Of a stretch of DNA of 40,297 nucleotides, positions 17,058 through 37,883 are shown one piece after another. The stretch is from Conidiobolus incongruus B7586 (lineage: Eukaryota): assembly GCA_000697335.1 (NCBI GenBank), contig JNEM01008732.1:1-40297 (forward strand), in the 5' to 3' direction. Made by a program: the position numbers and the translations under genes. How positions within the stretch are numbered: the first letter of the stretch is position 1; each line of letters begins with the position of its first letter. Below the pieces are notes generated by a model. It was not told the DNA's origin and searched no databases. It saw only the letters and a program-made list of their open reading frames with translations.

Positions 17058-18221
17058 TATAATAATGCTTAAGCATTTAAAATTTATATTGTTAATTAAT
17101 TTAAAAATCAAAGAAAATTATAATAAATTTACATTTTACATTTTGTATATTCAGATGTGAATTTATATTTGTTTGATTAATTTAATTATATTTGTTTTAA
17201 ATAGCTTGTTTATTATTATAATAATGAATTATTAAGCATATTTTCATATTTTTTATCTTAATAAATATATGAAAATTTTATTATTATATGGATTAGTTTA
17301 TATGAGTTTATTAATAAGTCAAATATTTAAAAAATGATTATTTTCAACTTAGTATTAATTGGAAATAGTTATATCAAGCTTATATTGAAATTGAGTATAT
17401 TATAACATGTGATATATATACTCTATCACCTCTCATTGATATAAATTAAAATAATTTTTTAAAGTATTATAACTTTAATAATAATAATAATAATAATAAT
17501 ATTTAATTCATTAAATTTATTGATTAAAACAAGGAAATCTTAGAAGTTTGTTGAGATAATTTGTTCGCTATCTAAATGACTTGAGTCAAATACAAGTCAG
17601 TAATATAATTTTGTAGACTTCACAATTTTTTCCAGCTGATCAAAAATTGACCGACACAAAAGACATTAAAACAATATCCGTATATTTATTTATATTTTTT
17701 GTAGTATTTTAAAGAATTTATTTTCTATAAAATCATTTCATTATCAGAAATCTAACATATTTAATGGGGCAAACTTCTCAGTGAATGAAAAAACATGTTT
17801 AAGATAATTTGGGTCACCATAAATGTGAAAAAGTGTGCAATTAAAATTATTCACACGTAGCAATTTTAATAAAACCAAATTATTTAAACTAACTTGGTAT
17901 AGCTTAAATTTTTTTATTAAAACATTGCATCATTCTTGCGCAATTTTTTTAAAGATTGATCCAAACTATCTTAAAAAAGGTATATACTGATAACAATTGT
18001 AATTAATAATCAAATATCCCATAATAGTAAAATTTAAAGATACCATGATAAATCTTTGTTACAGATTAGAATTCAAACGTCATTAATCAATGTATAATTA
18101 ATTATATTTAACTTATTTTCATATCACTAAAATATTATTTAAAATCGTTTAAAATTATTATCAATTAAACATTTAATCATTATTAAATATACCTTTTAGT
18201 TGTTTTTAATTTTAATTGAGT

Positions 18222-21200
18222 ATGACAGATAAAAATTTCCATTTAACAGACGAACAATATAAACAAATCGAAGAGAATAGAAAGAAAGCTTTAGAAAGGA
18301 AATATCAAACTCAATCAGGCTCTAATACTAAGGTTACGAGCCCTTTTTTCAGTGTCAATCAGTCCAATTCAAACAACAGTCCTTTAACAGCCGAACAATT
18401 GCAAATGATTGAAGAAAGGAGAAAACAGGCTTTAGAAAGACAGGCCAAGTCAAAGGGTTCAACTACAAAAACTTCCATTCAAAAGTCTATTTTGCACTAT
18501 TTTAAACCCCATGATACTCCTACTAAGTCCAACTCACCAGTATCCAATACTACACCTACAAAGCCCTCAGCCCAATCCAACTGTACGCAATCAAACCACA
18601 AAGTAGAACCTAGTTCTTCTATTACACCATCATCAAACTCACAATTCCAAAAACCCGCACTAGTCCACAATGAAGATACGGTATTTTAATCCATACCAAT
18701 TTGTAAAATATATATTTATACTAACAATGAAAATAGAAAATGGATGTCGATTTGGAAGATAATATTCCATTATCCACAACGAGTCGCAGAGCAAAAAGAA
18801 CAATTAATTACGATGGAAATGAAAGTGATTCTGATGATGGTATGCTATTAATCATCAACACACAAATAATTTTATGCTAACCCAATTTAATCAAGGTTCT
18901 AATCCACAATCTCTTAAAAAGAAATATAAAAATGATGATGAATTTCAAATTGATGAAGAGAGTAATATAGTGAGTATATAACTAATTACAATATTGCTAA
19001 CTATGCATTTAGCATTATCTTTCATGAATGAAATTGATTTCAATGATAACTTTTTGGAGGATGAAAAACCTAAATCTAAGCCTAAGTCTATGTCAACTCC
19101 TACTAAAACTTTTACCAGCAATTCTCAGTTTAGCGCTGGTTGGTTAGATGTAATATTTTATGAATTATCCTTATTTAGTAATGTGTTTACTTATTGGCTT
19201 CTTTAGAGTTTCAAATCTGCTGAAAAATCCAAATCTAACTCTGAACCAACAAAAGTCGTAGCTACTAATACTCAATCTAAGGTAATAAGATTAAATTCTT
19301 ATTAAAAATTGATCATTAAACATCAATTTTTTCAAAGATAAACTTTGGATTGTCAAGTAGCCAAAAAACTGGAAGTAATGAGAAAAATGAAGAACGCTAC
19401 CCATGGTTGGTTGATGTCAGAGATGCCAATGGCCGTCGTCCATCAGATCCTGAATACGATTCACGCACCCTTTTTATCCCAGATGCAGCCTACCGAAAGT
19501 TTACACCTTTCGAAAAGCAGTTTTGGGACATTAAAAAAGAAAATTACAATACTGTTATCTTCTTCAAAAAGGGAAAGTTTTATGAATTATACGAAAATGA
19601 CGCGGATATCGGTCATCAAAAATTCGATTTAAAGTTGACTGATCGTGTTAATATGAGAATGGTTGGAGTTCCAGAAACTTCACTTGATTTCTGGGCTTCT
19701 AAATTCATTGCCATTGGATATAAAGTTGGTAAGGTTGAACAAATGGAAACTGCTGTTGGTAAATCTATTAGGGAAAGGGATACAGCTTCGAAGGTACAGA
19801 ATTTATTACATTATCCTTCTATAATATTTAATGACTTGATTCTTGTATTTTTAGAAAAACAATGTCATTGAACGTAAATTGACTACCATTTTAAGTGCCA
19901 GTACCTTGGTTGATCTCGGATTATTGACCAGTGATATGGCTGTTTATTGTATGGCTATAAAGGTATAATTATGAAGTGATTTGTTTTCATAGAATTCTCA
20001 CTCAGAATGTTAGGAACAAATCAATCCCAATGGATCAGGTGGTAAATTTGGTATTGCTTTCGTTGATGCGGCAGCTGCAGAGTTCCATTTGGCTTCTTTG
20101 GGAGATGATGAGAATTTCACCAAATTTGAAACTTTAATTCTACAGGTTCAACCCACTGAAATTATTTATGCTAAAGTAATATCATCTTATTCATGTTAAT
20201 TTAATTCGTATTTAATCAATGTTCTGTTTAGGGATCTCTCAGTTTGAATACCTTAAGATGTTTAAGAAATAATTGTCCCAATTTAACCATGTAATATTAT
20301 ATTTTATTAAAAATTCAATTTTATATTAATCCTTGATTTAGGACACCTATTACTCCAAACAAAGAATTTTGGGATGCCAATAGAACCATTGAAGAATTTG
20401 AAAAAATGAATTATTTTGGAGATGATAGAGGTAATTCTTAGCATAATTAATTTAATTTTTATATTAACTTGAGTAATCAGACCAATGGCCCACTTCCTTC
20501 CTTGAATATATGAATGACGAATTGGTCATGTCAGCTTTGGGTGGTTTAACATGGCATTTAAGATATGTAAGTATTCTAATCATTCTTAAACTACAAATAT
20601 TCTCATATTTTTTTAGCTCAAACTTGATAAAGACCTATTATCCGTTAAAAATCTGAAAACATTTGATCCTGTAAAGAGCTTCGATACTCTGGTATTAGAT
20701 GGTCCTACTCTTAGTAATTTAGAAGTTTTAGCCAATAATATTGACGGAAGTAATGAGGGAACAGTCCATCAGCTGTTGAATCATTGTCTTAGTCCCTTTG
20801 GTATTATAAAATTTAATCATTCAATATTACCTATTTTTAACATACTATATATAGGTAAACGTAAATTTAGAAATTGGTTATGCCATCCGTTAAAAGATAT
20901 CGAGAAAATCAACGAAAGACTTGATGCTATTGAAGATATCGACAGATTGTACGAATTACAGAGTATTGGTACCAGACTTAGTAACTTCCCTGATTTGGAA
21001 CGTTTAATCACTAGAATCCACTCCAATTCCATTAAAGTCAAAGATTTCTTGAGTGTATTAAAGGGATTCGATGAAGCAATGGTAATCTATTTTATATTAG
21101 TTTAATTTCATTTTTCTTATCAAGTTTAGAAATTATTTGAAGAAATGAAATTACTTCAATCCCAATTCAAGTCCAAGTTGTTAATTCAGCTTTGTGAGAA

Positions 21201-23061
21201 TTTTCCTGATTTGGCTCAAAGATTGTATTATTTTGAACATGCATTTGATCACGATTTAGCTGCTAAAGAAGGTAAATATATATTACATTTTGTCATTCCA
21301 ATATCTAATTTTAATTACATAGGTGTAGTTATTCCTGCTCCTGGCTCGGATGAAGCATACGATCAAGCTCATCAAGCTGTTATTGATATTGAAAATGAAT
21401 TCGAACAATATCTATCTCAAATTAAATCTAAGTTGAAGTAAGTATATCAATCCAATCCTTTTACCTTACTAAACAATATTTTAGATGTCCTTCTATTGAA
21501 TATAAACATATCGGTAAAGATATTTATCAATTAGAAATACCTGCTTCAAAACAAGTTCCTAATGATTTTATTAAACATGGTCAAACTCAGGTAATTTTAA
21601 TAATTTTATTTATTAATAAATTTTTATATCGTATATTCCAATCAATAGAAAGTAAAGAGGTATTATACGCCTACTCTAGAAAACATGATCAAACGGTATA
21701 ACGAAGCAAAAGAGATTAAATCGAATGCAACAGCTACAGTATTAAATCGACTATGCCAAGCCTTTGATAGAGATTACCAGCAATGGTCCAAGATGGTCAG
21801 TTATTTGGCTACACTTGATTGTATCTTTTCATTGGCCAAGAGTAAATCTCTAATGGGAGGTAATTAATTTATCAATATTAAACATCAACTCATTAACTTT
21901 TTTATTAGAGCCTTGCGTTCGCCCTCAATTCTTCAATGAATCTAAGAGCTTTTTAGAAGTCAAAGATTTGAGACATCCTTGTGTCGTATCACAGTAATTA
22001 CCCCTATAGATTTCATTTATACTAGTGATTAATTTGGTTTTAGAGGAAAAGTGGACTACATTCCCAATGATACTTCTTTAGGAGGAAAGGAACCAGAAAT
22101 GATTTTGTTAACAGGTCCTAACATGGGTGGTAAATCCACCTTACTTCGTCAAGTAATTGTTATATTTTAAAAAATGAATATTATTTGTTAATCCCTATTA
22201 AATTAGACTTGTGTTGCTGTAATCATGGCACAATTAGGATGTTTCGTTCCTGCAAGTTCTTGTAAATTAACTATTTTTGATAGAATTTTCACAAGAATTG
22301 GTAATTTAAATATACTATTTATTCATATTATATTCAATTTACTCAACTCTTTTAGGTGCGAATGACAATATACTGGCTGGTCAATCTACTTTCATGGTAG
22401 AATTAAGTGAGACTGCTAAAATTTTAAAGGAAGCTACAAGTCGTTCTTTGGTGATTTTAGATGAATTGGGCAGAGGAACAAGTACTTTTGACGGGTAAGT
22501 TTATTTAGAGTTAATTCGACATATCTATATATAATTAATATTTATCCTGATAGATATGCAATCGCTTTTTCAGTACTTCACTATCTAACTACTCAAGTTC
22601 ATTGCTTGGGATTATTCTCTACTCATTACGGTATGTTAACAGAGGAAATGAAGGATCAACCCAACATTTCAATTAAACATATGAAATGCTTGGCTAATCC
22701 TAATCAAAGAGAAGTTACATTTTTATATAAATTAACACCAGGAGCTTGTCCTAAGGTATTATTAAAATTCGCTTTATATAATATAATATATTAATTATTA
22801 ATTTTAGAGTTATGGTATGAACGTTGCCAGTATGGCAGGAATACCCGAAAATGTAAATATATTTACGCTCTACATTTCTCAATAATACTAACATTCTATT
22901 ACATTCAGATTATTGTTAACGCGGAATTAGCAGCACAACAATTTGAAAAAGATCATCAAATTATAGTAGAAAATACCAATTTATCTGATGGTCAAAATGA
23001 GTATCAATTAAGTTTAATTGAAAAATCAAATTTTGCAAATTTAATGAGAAACTTATTATAA
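18222..23061 (+). CDS. MSH6: DNA mismatch repair protein MSH6, highly intron-rich
   Basis: PIP box [33 protein letters not shown] (Phe-X-Glu mismatch motif); Walker [49 protein letters not shown]; exons joined by many ~50-nt GT-AG introns; stop TAA 23059-23061. Confidence 0.95.
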
Positions 23062-23080: not shown

Positions 23081-23694
23081 TTATTAATAAATTCGCTTAG
23101 GAAATTAATCATTTTAAAAATATTATTTGAAGTTCATTTTTATATACTTTTATATTATACAACAATATAAAGTTATTTTTATTTGAGGCTTATTTATCTA
23201 AATGAATATTAATCAATCTATAAAAAATTCAATTGTTTATTATAGAATAATTTTTTATCACTTTAAAATGCTAGAGTATTAACAAATATTTTAATTAATA
23301 CTTTTTATATATTTAATTCATCATCAATTAATATAAAATTTAATATATTATTGTAGAATAATTAGAAATTTGAAATAATTAATTTATCTCTTTTAATTTG
23401 TTAAAAATATATTAAAAATTGCTTAGAAAAATAATTATTTCATTAATATTGGTATTGATATTTTTTTTTTCAGATTGAATAAATTGATAAAAATGAAATT
23501 TAAAATATAGTTTTTATTTAAAAATTAAAATATCTCAATTAAATAATTGAATCAAAACCCATAACTAAAAAATTGAGTTAACTTATTAGAAAAATCAGCA
23601 ATATAATAAAAAGTGGTCTCAATAATTTATTAATTATACTTCATTATTTAATCATTAATATTTTTTTACTCATTTCCAGTAAAAAATTATAGAT

Positions 23695-24213
23695 ATGATA
23701 GGTAAAGAAGAAGAAGAGAGAGAGCAATTTCAAGTTAGCTTAGTCAAAGTAACCAGTGAAAATATAATGAAGTTAAAGAGGTTAAACAGTTTATTATTTC
23801 CCGTAACATATGGTGAAAAGTTTTATAAAAGACTATTGAATTTGGAGAGTGAAGCTTATTTAGCTTATTTGGATGAAAAATGCATTGGAGCGATTTGTTT
23901 TCGAAAGGAAGTTATCCCTACAGACCTCGATATTAAAGAAGATGAGAGAAAATATCAACTATACATTATGACACTTGGGGTTTTGTCAGTGTATCGTCAG
24001 AGTGGTGTAGGCTCTGCGCTCTTGGACAAAGTGCTGGAGGTGGGGATGGAGGACCCTTCAGTGACGAGTGTAAATTTACACGTACAAGTGAATAACCAAG
24101 TAGCAATAGATTTTTATAAAAAATTCGGGTTTAAAATATCGCATATTTGTCATAATTATTACGTTAGATTGGATCCTGCTGATGCTTATGTATTATATAA
24201 AAAATTAAATTAG
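23695..24213 (+). CDS. NAA50: N-terminal acetyltransferase E subunit NAA50/Nat5/San (GNAT)
   Basis: LKRLNSLLFPVTYGEKFY, LYIMTLGVLSVYRQSGVGS, LHVQVNNQVAIDFYKKFGF, NYYVRLDPADAYVL. Confidence 0.9.
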   Translation: MIGKEEEEREQFQVSLVKVTSENIMKLKRLNSLLFPVTYGEKFYKRLLNLESEAYLAYLDEKCIGAICFRKEVIPTDLDIKEDERKYQLYIMTLGVLSVYRQSGVGSALLDKVLEVGMEDPSVTSVNLHVQVNNQVAIDFYKKFGFKISHICHNYYVRLDPADAYVLYKKLN

Positions 24214-32468: not shown

Positions 32469-33640
32469 AAATTTAGATTGAATAAAATATTTTCAAACAT
32501 ATATTATTATATTAAAGGAACTTACTATTTAAATAAAATCTTTGGAATTTTTTAAAAGAATCTTAATTTTATTACCTTCAAAAATTTTGAGAAAAAATTT
32601 TTTAACCAAATATATTTGAAAATTGTGTTATAAAGTTAATATTAATATATTATATTCAATATAAATTATGTTATATTATAAAAGTTTAATACTATGGCTT
32701 ATTATTAAAATGTAATCTATCTAATCAGCTACAACCAATTTAAAATACTTAATCTTTTATATTGCTTATTAGATAATTACGTTCGGAATTCAAAATTGAA
32801 TTCTAAAATCTATAAATTTTAATTAATATAGAATAAAAAGAAATTTAATAGTTGGATAATTATAGAGCTTGTCAATAAAATTTATACATATTAATTATGA
32901 GAAACGGTGTAATAATTGAATAATATTCGCTTTCGATGAATCAATTTTAATAGTCCTACTATTCCTTTAAAAGTTATCAAATCATTTTAGGTTTAGTATA
33001 TTATTAATTGATTCCTAAATTTGACTCCATGTCCGTTAATTGATCTAATTGATTATTCTCATTAAATTGATGGACATTTTAATTAATTGAAATACTATTA
33101 TACATAATGCTATTTTTATTTTAGAATTTGATTTGAAAAGTTAAAAAATGCTTATGAATATGATTATTTATATGCTTTCATAATCATTCTGATAATTACA
33201 TCGATATAATAATAAAAAAGTTTTCGATTTCATAATTAACAGTACTCCAAGTGGTTATCCACCAAATGATTAATATTCAATTGGGGAATTTGAAGAAAAA
33301 GGTAAGGATTGGCATTTGATAAATCGACTCAAAAGGAATGAATCTCAACTGAATCATTAACTTGCGGAGATAAGAATGTCTCTAATGGCAATTCCCGGTA
33401 CTCATCAAATAAGAGTTGAGCTAAGTTCAAACTCTAGTGAAGATATCATCCTCCACCTCCAATTAACCTAAAACTTTCCATATTTTGACCAATTCTTGGC
33501 CCTCGACTTCAGGACTTTAAATTCGAGTTAAATCATTTAGCCCAATTCGGAACTTGTGGAGTGTCGATTATAAATATTGAAAAGATACCATCATTACACT
33601 TCACACTATTTGTTCGTCCTTAGATTATATTAAAGTTAGA

Positions 33641-34303
33641 ATGAAGTTCAATTTATTGCAATTGATTCTTCTAGTCAATTCTGCATTCAGTAACTCTGTC
33701 ACTGATCTCAATGCACTGTGTCAAGCTTCGTGTCCGGGTGTCAAAAAATCCGAATCATGCACCAAAACCTGCATGCAGACTGGAGGATATGGCAATCCAC
33801 CTCCAGACCCTGATGCAATGAAAGCATGCGGGAACGACTACCACTGCTGTACCAAGGTAAGTCGAAGATGGCTTGGATATTCCGAGGAGCAAGTCAATTA
33901 TCTTAGCGATTTCGATAAGATCGTTGAAGTGTGTCAGGATCGATTGGATCATATAGAGCCCAAGTGCACGAAAGATTGCGAAGCTCAGGAGCTGCCCATC
34001 TATAGGAAATGCATTTCAGAATTAACTCAAACATCCGAAAATGCTTGGAATGATATTTATACCTGCGAAAACAACTGTATGAATGGAAAAGGCAATTTCA
34101 ACGAAGTGAGAGATTGTACATTTAACTGCAATCTCAGTATGTATAAATCTCTTAAAACCAGCGCTGCCGTTTCCGAAAAGCAGAATGGAGCAGCAGCAGC
34201 CGCTGGAGGAACTTCAGCAGCGTTTTCCATCCATTCAAAAGCCTTTACAAATCACAACCTCTTGATGGGGTTAGTTATTGGAGGACTGGTTATAATAGTT
34301 TAA
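33641..34303 (+). CDS. Secreted cysteine-rich, probably GPI-anchored surface protein (220 aa)
   Basis: Signal peptide MKFNLLQLILLVNSAFS; 15 Cys including five CxxxC pairs; small-residue omega region (GAAAAAGGTSAA) and a hydrophobic C-terminal tail. Confidence 0.85.
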   Translation: MKFNLLQLILLVNSAFSNSVTDLNALCQASCPGVKKSESCTKTCMQTGGYGNPPPDPDAMKACGNDYHCCTKVSRRWLGYSEEQVNYLSDFDKIVEVCQDRLDHIEPKCTKDCEAQELPIYRKCISELTQTSENAWNDIYTCENNCMNGKGNFNEVRDCTFNCNLSMYKSLKTSAAVSEKQNGAAAAAGGTSAAFSIHSKAFTNHNLLMGLVIGGLVIIV

Positions 34304-36209: not shown

Positions 36210-37064
36210 GATTAAAGTATTAAACAATGTGAATGAGAATTTTTCTTTTCGGTTTATCAATCTATATGAATTTTATATGAAAAGTGTGTTGAAGTTTGAG
36301 ACACTATGTGAATAAAAATTCATGTACTGATATTTTTTTGAAGCTGTGCACTTTATATTAATTATATTTGTATTTTATATCTATCAATGTAATGATATTG
36401 ACTTGATTTTCAACTTTATATTTGGTATTATAGTATTTTTCACATTGCTTCAAATCAATTTCAGTTTAAATTAACCAATATTATCATAATAAATATTCTG
36501 ACTTTTCTAAATTTGAAAATAGTGCACCGCATTCTTCCAAATATTATTATTATAAATCTGTTAAAAATAACTCGAATATCAAAAAAATTTAATATTAATT
36601 TATTCAATCAACGTTGATAAAATTATTCTTGGATAAAAGTCTATTCAATAAGTCCAAGATGGATTAATAGTATTTATATAATATTACAATTTATGAATAG
36701 ATATTAAAAATTCTAGCTTGTCAATCATATTCAACCTTTCACAATTTGAAAATATTTTTAATCATATCAAAATTTATTAATATTTAGAGAATTTGTGTTT
36801 TAGAAATAATGATATAAAGACTAAATATCATATATGTTTGCCATTGAAAATATAATTATGTCCAAATAGTATTACTACTTATCACTTTACAATTATTAAA
36901 ATGTGAATAAATTCCATGTGCTTACTAAATTAAAATAGGGTTAATTAAATTAATACGTCATTAGTTTTTATGAACAAATTAAAATTTTATGTGAATTGGA
37001 GAAAATGATCAATGCAAAGCATTTCTGTTAAGTTTAATTCATTTATAATTATAATATCAAAGTA

Positions 37065-37883
37065 ATGACCCTAGGTAATCCATATGACTTTCACCAAGAT
37101 GAAGAACAATACAATTCAGTTGAACTTTCCCCTGAAAGAGATTTAGATAGTCCAAATTTTCTCCAAGTCGATTCAAATTCAACATCATTTACACTAATTA
37201 CAGAGCCAAACATAAATCCTTTAAATAATTTAGGTCAGAATGGAGATGTTGATCCTACAAGGAACATTTCTAATCAAGCGAAAGATTCCGACAATATATC
37301 AAATTTAACTTTAAATCCAAATGACGATTTCGAAGACACTAACAACATTTCAAGAGATCTAAGTCAACTAAACACTTCAGAAATATTTTCAGAGATTACA
37401 GACCTTTCTAATACGACTATCACTTGGGAAAATTTCAATAGAGGCATTAACGCTTCTGATTTTTCAGATAAACCAGGCAAAGTTGAATCGAGTCCCTGTA
37501 AAGGGGTTGAGATGGAATCAAAAAATATAGATAAGTCTTTTACTAACAAACCAGAAGATCAATGTGATGTTCTGCAGATTAAACCCTTCACTGACGAAGC
37601 CACTAGAGAGAATTTAGTTGAAGACCAAAGCGAAAGCAATGCTAATACAACACCAACCAAAGTCAATATAAATTCAAATCATCATTCAGAATCAAAAAGC
37701 TCCCCACATAATATTAGTTCAACAAGCTCCAAGGTTACTCAAGCAACCGAAAATAATAATAATGCTACTCAAACAGATCATAACAATGAATTGTCAGATG
37801 ATCATAATATATCATGCTCTAGAGATACCCAAACTCTCCCAACAAAACGGCAAAAGGTGAATCGGGATCAGTTAACCAAATAA
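37065..37883 (+). CDS. Hypothetical low-complexity N/S/T/D-rich protein (272 aa)
   Basis: Long open frame with coding-like composition; no recognisable domain; C-terminal PTKRQK resembles an NLS. Confidence 0.7.
   Translation: MTLGNPYDFHQDEEQYNSVELSPERDLDSPNFLQVDSNSTSFTLITEPNINPLNNLGQNGDVDPTRNISNQAKDSDNISNLTLNPNDDFEDTNNISRDLSQLNTSEIFSEITDLSNTTITWENFNRGINASDFSDKPGKVESSPCKGVEMESKNIDKSFTNKPEDQCDVLQIKPFTDEATRENLVEDQSESNANTTPTKVNINSNHHSESKSSPHNISSTSSKVTQATENNNNATQTDHNNELSDDHNISCSRDTQTLPTKRQKVNRDQLTK

What the first reader, a model, noticed from the sequence alone, without database searches (positions are those of the whole stretch)
18243..18503. MSH6 N-terminus carries two tandem RPA32-binding motifs, a MIP-like box and a PIP box
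Seen: exon 1 encodes [20 protein letters not shown] (18243-18302), VTSPFF (~18333-18350), [20 protein letters not shown] (18384-18443) and QKSILHYF (18480-18503), and splices in frame into the MSH6 body. Known: LTEEQxxxIExNRxxALxRR is the RPA32 C-terminal-binding helix of SMARCAL1/TIPIN/UNG2/XPA; SP[Y/F]F resembles MLH1-interacting (MIP) boxes; QxxIxxYF is the usual MSH6 PCNA-binding PIP box. Characterised MSH6 N-termini have PIP with or without PWWP/Tudor, not RPA motifs. Inference: this MutS-alpha may be recruited directly to RPA-coated ssDNA, an apparently undescribed architecture. It is notable in a genome producing many G:T/G:U mismatches in repeats.
Basis: partly seen in the sequence, partly recalled or inferred. 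Interest (0 to 1): 0.7.

Follow-up and report, generated by a model that had tools for sequence, protein, structure and literature searches.

The report
Twin RPA-docking helices on fungal MSH6
The mismatch-repair protein MSH6 of this early-branching fungus starts with two copies of the short helix that other repair proteins use to dock on the single-strand-DNA protein RPA, followed by the usual PCNA-clamp motif, so it likely has a second tether to replicating DNA.

Summary
Observation confirmed. Exon 1 (18222-18680) splices in frame into a 1203-aa MSH6, colinear with annotated Conidiobolus coronatus Msh6, which has the same helix-TSPFF-helix-PIP N-terminus. The window's first 100 residues alone hit the SMARCAL1 peptide of PDB 4MQV first (14/20 identical), and a profile built only from MSH6 N-termini retrieves SMARCAL1, TIPIN/Swi3 and XPA/Rad14. 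Helix 1 keeps both residues matching UNG2 N77/R84; helix 2 has Arg for the Asn. The helix is in 6 of 120 MSH6 hits (6 of 58 with a PIP box): five zoopagomycete-type and one chytrid. Only the Conidiobolus type has two. These arose by tandem duplication, and the 'MIP' box sits in register with the PIP box, so it may be a drifted PIP copy. Binding is untested: no RPA32 or MLH1 sequence and no RNA run was available. The closest design is UNG2's PIP plus RPA helix. None of my paper searches showed an MSH6 RPA motif; this scan noted one before in two other genomes. The G:T/G:U rationale has no support in the window. New variant of a known kind, 0.55.

The parts
18222..23061 (+). MSH6 gene, 24 exons, 1203 aa (modelled)
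   Evidence: open spliced frame; MutS_I E 5.7e-27 on exon 6; 80% identity to C. coronatus Msh6 body
18222..18680 (+). exon 1, aa 1-153, carries all four motifs
   Evidence: colinear with P0002/P0001 N-termini; no indel in second haplotype
18243..18302 (+). RPA32C-binding-type helix 1 (aa 8-27), near-consensus
   Evidence: 14/20 identical to the 4MQV SMARCAL1 peptide, E 0.038; 35.5 bits; helix 10-30 in model
18327..18350 (+). box 1 (aa 36-43): fits MIP consensus Sx(Y/F)F and lies in register with the PIP box
   Evidence: consensus from PMC8324060; 5/6 identical in C. coronatus; register
18384..18443 (+). RPA32C-binding-type helix 2 (aa 55-74), Arg in place of the motif Asn
   Evidence: 20.6 bits; 57-nt direct repeat of helix 1, 75% identical, spacing 141 nt; helix 57-76 in model
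18480..18503 (+). canonical PIP box (aa 87-94)
   Evidence: same pattern in 58 of 120 MSH6 hits
18681..18736 (+). intron 1, phase 0, links exon 1 to the MSH6 body
   Evidence: GT-AG, branch-like site, length like the other 22 introns; 6-nt indel of second haplotype inside it
19338..19793 (+). exon 6, MutS domain I with F361-x-E363

Best explanation
This MSH6 begins with two tandem SMARCAL1/TIPIN/XPA-type helices and a PIP box, which likely bind the RPA32 winged-helix domain and PCNA and would tether MutS-alpha at primer-template junctions, as UNG2's N-terminal tail does. Shown: the motifs, their place in one MSH6 reading frame, their conservation in C. coronatus, a single copy in other zoopagomycete MSH6 proteins and one chytrid, and the duplication. 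Inferred: (1) each helix folds on the acidic face of RPA32C, helix 1 more tightly than helix 2; (2) two helices give avidity on adjacent RPA molecules; (3) RPA plus PCNA binding concentrates MutS-alpha on newly made DNA beside RPA-coated gaps (lagging strand, excision gaps, recombination intermediates); (4) box 1 is the PIP of the duplicated helix-PIP unit that drifted into the MIP consensus and may or may not bind Mlh1.
For: Top PDB hit of the window's own first 100 aa is the SMARCAL1 chain of 4MQV, which PMC11387677 names as the RPA32C-SMARCAL1 complex. The MSH6-only profile A1 gives three significant single-stretch PDB hits: SMARCAL1 E 5.5e-7, TIPIN 2.1e-5, Rad14 7.3e-4. Of 69 database hits, 28 are SNF2/HARP, 9 XPA, 5 Swi3, 6 the MSH6 seeds, 1 Pol-delta OB and 20 unlabelled, 7 of these with a partial HARP match. 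Helix 1 has Asn and Arg seven apart, like UNG2 N77 and R84, which PMC8053108 says are needed for RPA2-WH binding (the register is my inference). Motifs are better kept than linkers against C. coronatus: 13/20, 5/6, 10/20, 5/8 versus 4/10, 2/11, 5/12. In a 7-row zoopagomycete clade (SH-aLRT 96), 5 of 5 proteins with a PIP-containing N-terminus carry the helix. The model shows free helices with no folded domain, pTM 0.26. Fungal XPA/Rad14 proteins, including zoopagomycete Spiromyces P0158, carry the same helix.
Against: Helix 2 has Arg at the Asn position in this genome (Asn in C. coronatus) and scores 15 bits lower. Tieghemiomyces P0010 scores only 7.6 bits on the non-MSH6 profile. 52 of 58 PIP-bearing MSH6 hits and 80 of 80 metagenome MSH6 loci show no helix, so it is dispensable for MSH6 in most fungi sampled. 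Three Smittium (zoopagomycete) proteins with a PIP box lack it. Sx(F/Y)F arises in 10.6% of shuffles, and S-x-aromatic-aromatic occurs in 4 of the 56 other PIP-bearing N-termini, as chance would give. The profile also sums weak matches on TAL repeats (at most about 5 bits each), so whole-protein scores overrate repeats.
Confidence: 0.78

Rival explanations
1. Only helix 1 binds RPA; helix 2 and box 1 are leftovers of a tandem duplication of the helix-PIP unit with no new function (no avidity, no MLH1 site).
For: 57-nt direct repeat with in-frame spacing. One 12-nt gap aligns box 1 on the PIP box. C. coronatus box 1 still starts with Gln. Helix-start-to-box-end distance is 35-36 aa for unit 1, against 38-42 in single-copy Tieghemiomyces and Dispira. 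Helix 2 lost the Asn here.
Against: Both helices and TSPFF are kept between species whose linkers have diverged. A basic residue may be tolerated at that position: PMC9407234 lists Lys31 among XPA's binding residues (register recalled, not tested).
Confidence: 0.35
2. Box 1 is a true MIP box, so the tail is a four-way hub (RPA, RPA, Mlh1, PCNA), switchable by CDK phosphorylation of the Ser-Pro as in FAN1.
For: Exact fit to Sx(Y/F)F, nearly the FAN1 SPYF box, whose S126 is a CDK site (PMC8324060). It is the only such motif in the 1203 aa. 5/6 conserved amid 4/10 and 2/11 linkers.
Against: 10.6% chance rate. Absent from the four single-helix MSH6 N-termini. Conservation is seen in one closely related lineage only, P0001 and P0002 being near-identical.
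Confidence: 0.35
3. The helices are generic charged helices (spacer, nuclear-localisation or DNA-binding segments) that resemble the RPA motif by composition.
For: E/K/R/Q-rich helices are common; 94 of 139 new library hits had no Pfam label.
Against: Position-specific match (14/20 to SMARCAL1); shuffles of the same composition reach at most 4.6 bits; 36 of the 45 labelled library hits and 42 of the 43 labelled non-seed database hits are SMARCAL1-like, TIPIN/Swi3 or XPA.
Confidence: 0.1
4. Exon 1 is a separate small gene (155-aa ORF ending at 18689) and MSH6 starts at the ATG at 18740.
For: An in-frame stop follows the donor, and exon 2 holds an ATG.
Against: P0002 and P0001 carry the same segment in one chain with MutS domains. 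Without exon 1 this MSH6 would have no PIP box. Intron 1 looks like the other 22. Four further annotated MSH6 proteins have helix and PIP in one chain.
Confidence: 0.03

Closest known systems
SMARCAL1 N-terminal RPA32C-binding motif (PDB 4MQV chain B); also TIPIN/Swi3 and XPA/Rad14
   Same: About 20-residue helix at the extreme N-terminus of a flexible tail; 14/20 identity for helix 1; tandem copies occur in many SMARCAL1-like proteins.
   Different: The carrier is a MutS-family mismatch sensor. The seven RPA2-WH binders named in the passages of PMC8053108 include no MutS protein.
UNG2 N-terminal domain (PCNA- and RPA-binding tail)
   Same: A disordered tail that combines PCNA and RPA tethers on a post-replicative repair enzyme; both are needed for localisation at stalled forks (abstract of PMC13292882).
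   Different: Order is helix then PIP here (PIP then helix in UNG2, recalled); two helices here; the cargo acts on mismatches in duplex DNA, not on uracil.
Canonical fungal MSH6 (PIP box only) and PWWP/Tudor-fused MSH6 of animals and plants
   Same: MutS I-V body, F-x-E motif, N-terminal PIP box.
   Different: 52 of 58 PIP-bearing hits lack the helix. The MSH6 domain survey bioRxiv 10.1101/2024.10.15.618488 reports PWWP, Tudor and ESCO fusions and never mentions RPA or PIP in its main text.
FAN1/EXO1/BLM MIP box
   Same: Sx(Y/F)F with a proline at x, as in FAN1.
   Different: Lies in register with a PIP box of a duplicated unit; binding untested; pattern frequent by chance.

Membership tests
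MSH6 | MutS domains I-V in one chain, nested among MSH6 orthologues | tested here: met
   MutS_I scanned on the window; 721/904 identity to P0002, which has all five domains; sister to it in trees, support 100
MSH6 | F-x-E mismatch-binding motif and Walker A motif (features recalled) | tested here: met
   F361-Y-E363 and GPNMGGKS near aa 982 in the modelled protein
MSH6 | N-terminal PIP box Qxx[ILM]xx[FY][FY] | tested here: met
   aa 87-94; 0.7% by chance
RPA32C-binding motif (SMARCAL1/TIPIN/XPA/UNG2) | sequence match to solved or characterised motifs | tested here: met
RPA32C-binding motif (SMARCAL1/TIPIN/XPA/UNG2) | Asn and Arg matching UNG2 N77 and R84, helix 1 | tested here: met
   Asn19 and Arg26, seven apart; register inferred
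RPA32C-binding motif (SMARCAL1/TIPIN/XPA/UNG2) | Asn and Arg matching UNG2 N77 and R84, helix 2 | tested here: inconclusive
   Arg66 replaces the Asn, Arg73 kept; C. coronatus has Asn and Lys
RPA32C-binding motif (SMARCAL1/TIPIN/XPA/UNG2) | helix within a flexible tail, outside a folded domain | tested here: met
   single-sequence model: helices 10-30 and 57-76 (block pLDDT up to 96 and 93), linkers 54-58, pTM 0.26
RPA32C-binding motif (SMARCAL1/TIPIN/XPA/UNG2) | physical binding to the RPA32 winged-helix domain | not testable with these tools
MIP box | Sx(Y/F)F consensus | tested here: met
   aa 40-43; consensus from PMC8324060
MIP box | conserved across orthologues beyond chance | tested here: inconclusive
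   kept in P0001/P0002 only; 10.6% chance rate
MIP box | binding to the MLH1 C-terminal domain | not testable with these tools

The most novel reading that the evidence does not exclude
MutS-alpha of zoopagomycete fungi has a PCNA-independent route to the fork through RPA32C, and in Conidiobolus a duplication of the helix-PIP cassette turned the spare PIP into a CDK-switchable MLH1 site, making one 95-residue tail a hub for RPA, PCNA and MutL-alpha. If the patchy spread reflects loss, the RPA helix was ancestral in fungal MSH6 and the yeast models study a reduced form.
Probability: 0.25. Interest if true: 0.78.

Novelty: new variant of a known kind. Interest (0 to 1): 0.55.

Why it matters
Mismatch repair must find errors just behind the fork. 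The known tethers on MSH6 are the PIP box and, in some lineages, histone readers. A natural RPA32C-binding module would be a third tether and the first direct MutS-RPA32C contact among the RPA partners listed in the papers I read. It can be tested cheaply: peptides against RPA32C, and a graft onto a PIP-less yeast Msh6 to ask whether RPA can replace PCNA as the coupling factor. Twenty-residue motifs are invisible to Pfam-based surveys and 62 of 120 database MSH6 hits lack the PIP-bearing N-terminus, so the feature is probably under-counted. The same helix on several other repair-type proteins shows it is a mobile motif, which tempers the surprise.

Tried and rejected
No RNA holder was listed; the runs laid were DNA contigs, so splicing was not seen. 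The second lay did not place the divergent haplotype, so its exon-1 substitutions could not be read. No whole genome is held, and family searches for RPA32C and Mlh1_C in the records behind my loci were not possible; no complex was predicted, so there is no verdict on binding. A word-based search with exon 1 alone found nothing, not even P0002, so such blanks are weak. ESM Atlas gave no usable hit. Pfam has no family for the helix; only sub-threshold DUF matches. TAL-repeat hits in the PDB profile search were rejected as sums of stretches of about 5 bits or less. The library search returned no new MutS-domain carrier among its best 150; three helix-plus-PIP fragments (P0241, P0244, P0319) look like MSH6 first exons but lack a MutS domain and were not counted; P0183 is weaker still. 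Trees cannot tell gain from loss: 3 changes on the 41-row FastTree tree, 2 on the 22-row IQ-TREE tree, and the long-branched Smittium moves between them. A repeat-deamination rationale was looked for and not found in the window. Feldkamp 2014 (PMC4020579) was not held.

Full report
Observation. The four peptides translate at the stated coordinates in one frame from the ATG at 18222. Placing 23 GT-AG introns of 47-61 nt gives one open frame of 1203 aa ending at 23061 (a first attempt with two wrong donors failed). Intron 1 (18681-18736) is phase 0, 56 nt, 18% GC, with a branch-like site 16 nt from the acceptor. No genome and no RNA run were available, so linkage rests on homology and variation. 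The best named hit of the MutS I exon is Conidiobolus coronatus Msh6, P0002, 79%. Its annotated N-terminus, and that of unnamed P0001, has the same helix-TSPFF-helix-PIP order, and the alignment runs straight across the exon 1/2 junction. DNA contigs of the likely source sample hold a second copy about 86% identical; of 11 listed indel rows, 3 lie upstream and 8 of 8 inside the gene fall in modelled introns.

What the helices are. The window's first 100 residues, searched alone against 177,635 PDB sequences, hit the 26-residue SMARCAL1 chain of 4MQV first, E 0.038, 14 of 20 identical. This test is independent of my profile. I then aligned the two window units with six MSH6 stretches (A1). In the PDB, A1 gave three significant single-stretch hits, SMARCAL1, TIPIN and Rad14; 28 higher-ranked rows were TAL repeats summing stretches of about 5 bits or less. 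Among 7989 scored database candidates it gave 69 hits: 28 SNF2/HARP, 9 XPA, 5 Swi3, 1 Pol-delta OB, the 6 MSH6 seeds, and 20 unlabelled, of which 7 show a partial HARP match. In the 1.84-billion library 505 proteins reached E 0.001; I scanned the 139 new ones among the best 150: 26 SNF2/HARP, 8 Swi3, 2 XPA, 9 other, 94 unlabelled, none with a MutS domain. A reverse profile from 32 non-MSH6 carriers scored helix 1 at 35.5 bits and helix 2 at 20.6, against 4.6 for the best of 2000 shuffles. That test is partly circular: the 32 were first found with A1, and my pattern forced an Asn. A single-sequence model shows two free helices and no folded domain. PMC8053108 names UNG2 N77 and R84 as needed for binding. 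By my register helix 1 has both; helix 2 has Arg for the Asn in this genome but Asn in C. coronatus.

Distribution. The helix is in 6 of 120 MSH6 hits, all among the 58 with a PIP box before MutS I: P0001 and P0002 (two copies), Tieghemiomyces, Dispira, Syncephalis and the chytrid Polychytrium (one copy each). Tieghemiomyces scores weakly on the reverse profile, 7.6 bits. None of 80 metagenome MSH6 loci shows it in six frames; some are cut short upstream and I did not assign their taxa. The 120 are the best of 2170 hits and the named ones are all fungi, so animals, plants and protists were not surveyed directly. On a 22-row tree of the MutS body, the window groups with C. coronatus (100) in a 7-row zoopagomycete clade (96), where 5 of 5 PIP-bearing N-termini have the helix and two models lack the PIP region. 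Polychytrium sits among chytrids. Smittium lacks the helix and has a long, unstable branch. The fewest changes are 2 on this tree and 3 on a 41-row tree. Gain and loss cannot be told apart.

The duplication and box 1. The two helices are a 57-nt direct repeat, 75% identical, 141 nt apart. Aligning the two units needs one 12-nt gap and puts box 1 on the PIP box; C. coronatus box 1 still begins with Gln, and the helix-to-box distance matches single-copy relatives. So the unit that duplicated was probably helix plus PIP. Box 1 fits the MIP consensus Sx(Y/F)F and resembles FAN1's SPYF, a CDK-regulated MLH1 site, and it is 5/6 conserved between linkers at 4/10 and 2/11. But the pattern appears in 10.6% of shuffles and a looser one in 4 of 56 other N-termini. 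I put a working MIP at about 0.35.

Mechanism. Shown: anatomy, family membership by sequence, conservation, duplication. From the papers read: such motifs bind an acidic surface of RPA32C and recruit XPA to damage, and UNG2 needs both PCNA and RPA binding to localise at stalled forks. Inferred: this MSH6 uses the same dual tether to hold MutS-alpha where PCNA and RPA meet, with two helices adding avidity. Binding was not tested, as no RPA32 or MLH1 sequence could be obtained. Confidence 0.78 that at least helix 1 binds RPA32C.

CpG observed/expected is 0.74 over the window. Of 40 direct-repeat families the 20 shown, and of 171 inverted pairs the 25 shown, are AT-rich low-complexity matches apart from the helix repeat. 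Nothing here supports the remark.

Literature. Searches for an MSH6 RPA motif: MSH6 + RPA32 + RPA-binding motif, 0 papers; RPA32C + MSH6, 0; RPA2 winged-helix + UNG + MSH6, 2, listing only; a five-term Msh6/N-terminal/PCNA/RPA search, 36, of which 25 seen as listing; Msh6 + Rfa2 + mismatch repair, 19, of which 18 seen as listing. No listed title concerns such a motif. Read as passages: bioRxiv 10.1101/2024.10.15.618488 (no occurrence of RPA or PIP in the main text), PMC8210275 (no occurrence of MSH or MutS), PMC8324060, PMC11387677, PMC9407234, PMC8053108. Abstract only: PMC13292882. Listing only: PMC8424649. The supplement of PMC8053108, with its alignment of WH binders, could not be read, and the preprint's supplements were not seen; either could bear on novelty. 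Most subscription journals are not searched. Earlier notes of this scan report one such helix in MSH6 of two other genomes and one in a LINE protein; a sequence look-up found none like this window. These are unchecked leads, found after my reading was formed.

Verdict. A real, conserved feature: a known mobile RPA32C-binding motif on a carrier for which my searches found no description, doubled in the Conidiobolus lineage together with its PIP box. New variant of a known kind; interest 0.55.

Noticed in passing
window 18007-19072, run contigs: A second copy about 86% identical (118 differences in 832 nt) at similar depth (43.5 versus 52) lies over the gene in the same sample, suggesting two divergent haplotypes or a hybrid.
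   Followed up: partly
P0179, P0236, P0204, P0272, P0290, P0224, P0258, P0225: The same helix, often repeated, sits on proteins with a Pol-delta OB domain, HHH_8, GRF zinc finger, HTH_40 or RING domain: possible further RPA32C clients.
   Followed up: no
P0241, P0244, P0319, P0183: Unnamed fragments with helix followed by a PIP or PIP-like box, probably first exons of further MSH6 genes; P0241 matches Syncephalis MSH6 over 213 aa, E 1e-20.
   Followed up: partly
P0121-P0137: SMARCAL1-like proteins with 3 to 8 copies of the helix, some labelled as diatom.
   Followed up: no
P0001-P0120: 62 of 120 MSH6 hits have no PIP box before MutS I; many are fragments or look like gene models missing exon 1.
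   Followed up: partly
P0037: Bifiguratus MSH6 entry of 1679 aa also lists PF00587 and PF02403 (seryl-tRNA-synthetase-type domains, name recalled), probably two merged genes.
   Followed up: no
window 5653-39233: Ordinary neighbours: mitochondrial carrier, PUF protein, class-III aminotransferase, GNAT acetyltransferase (23683-24213), SPB4-like DEAD helicase, TTI1 in one 1030-codon frame, DUF1771-Smr protein, 7tm_1 receptor.
   Followed up: no
window 33581-34303 and 37038-37883: Two orphan ORFs: a cysteine-rich one with hydrophobic ends (looks secreted or anchored) and a low-complexity S/N/D/T-rich one; no Pfam match above cut-off.
   Followed up: no
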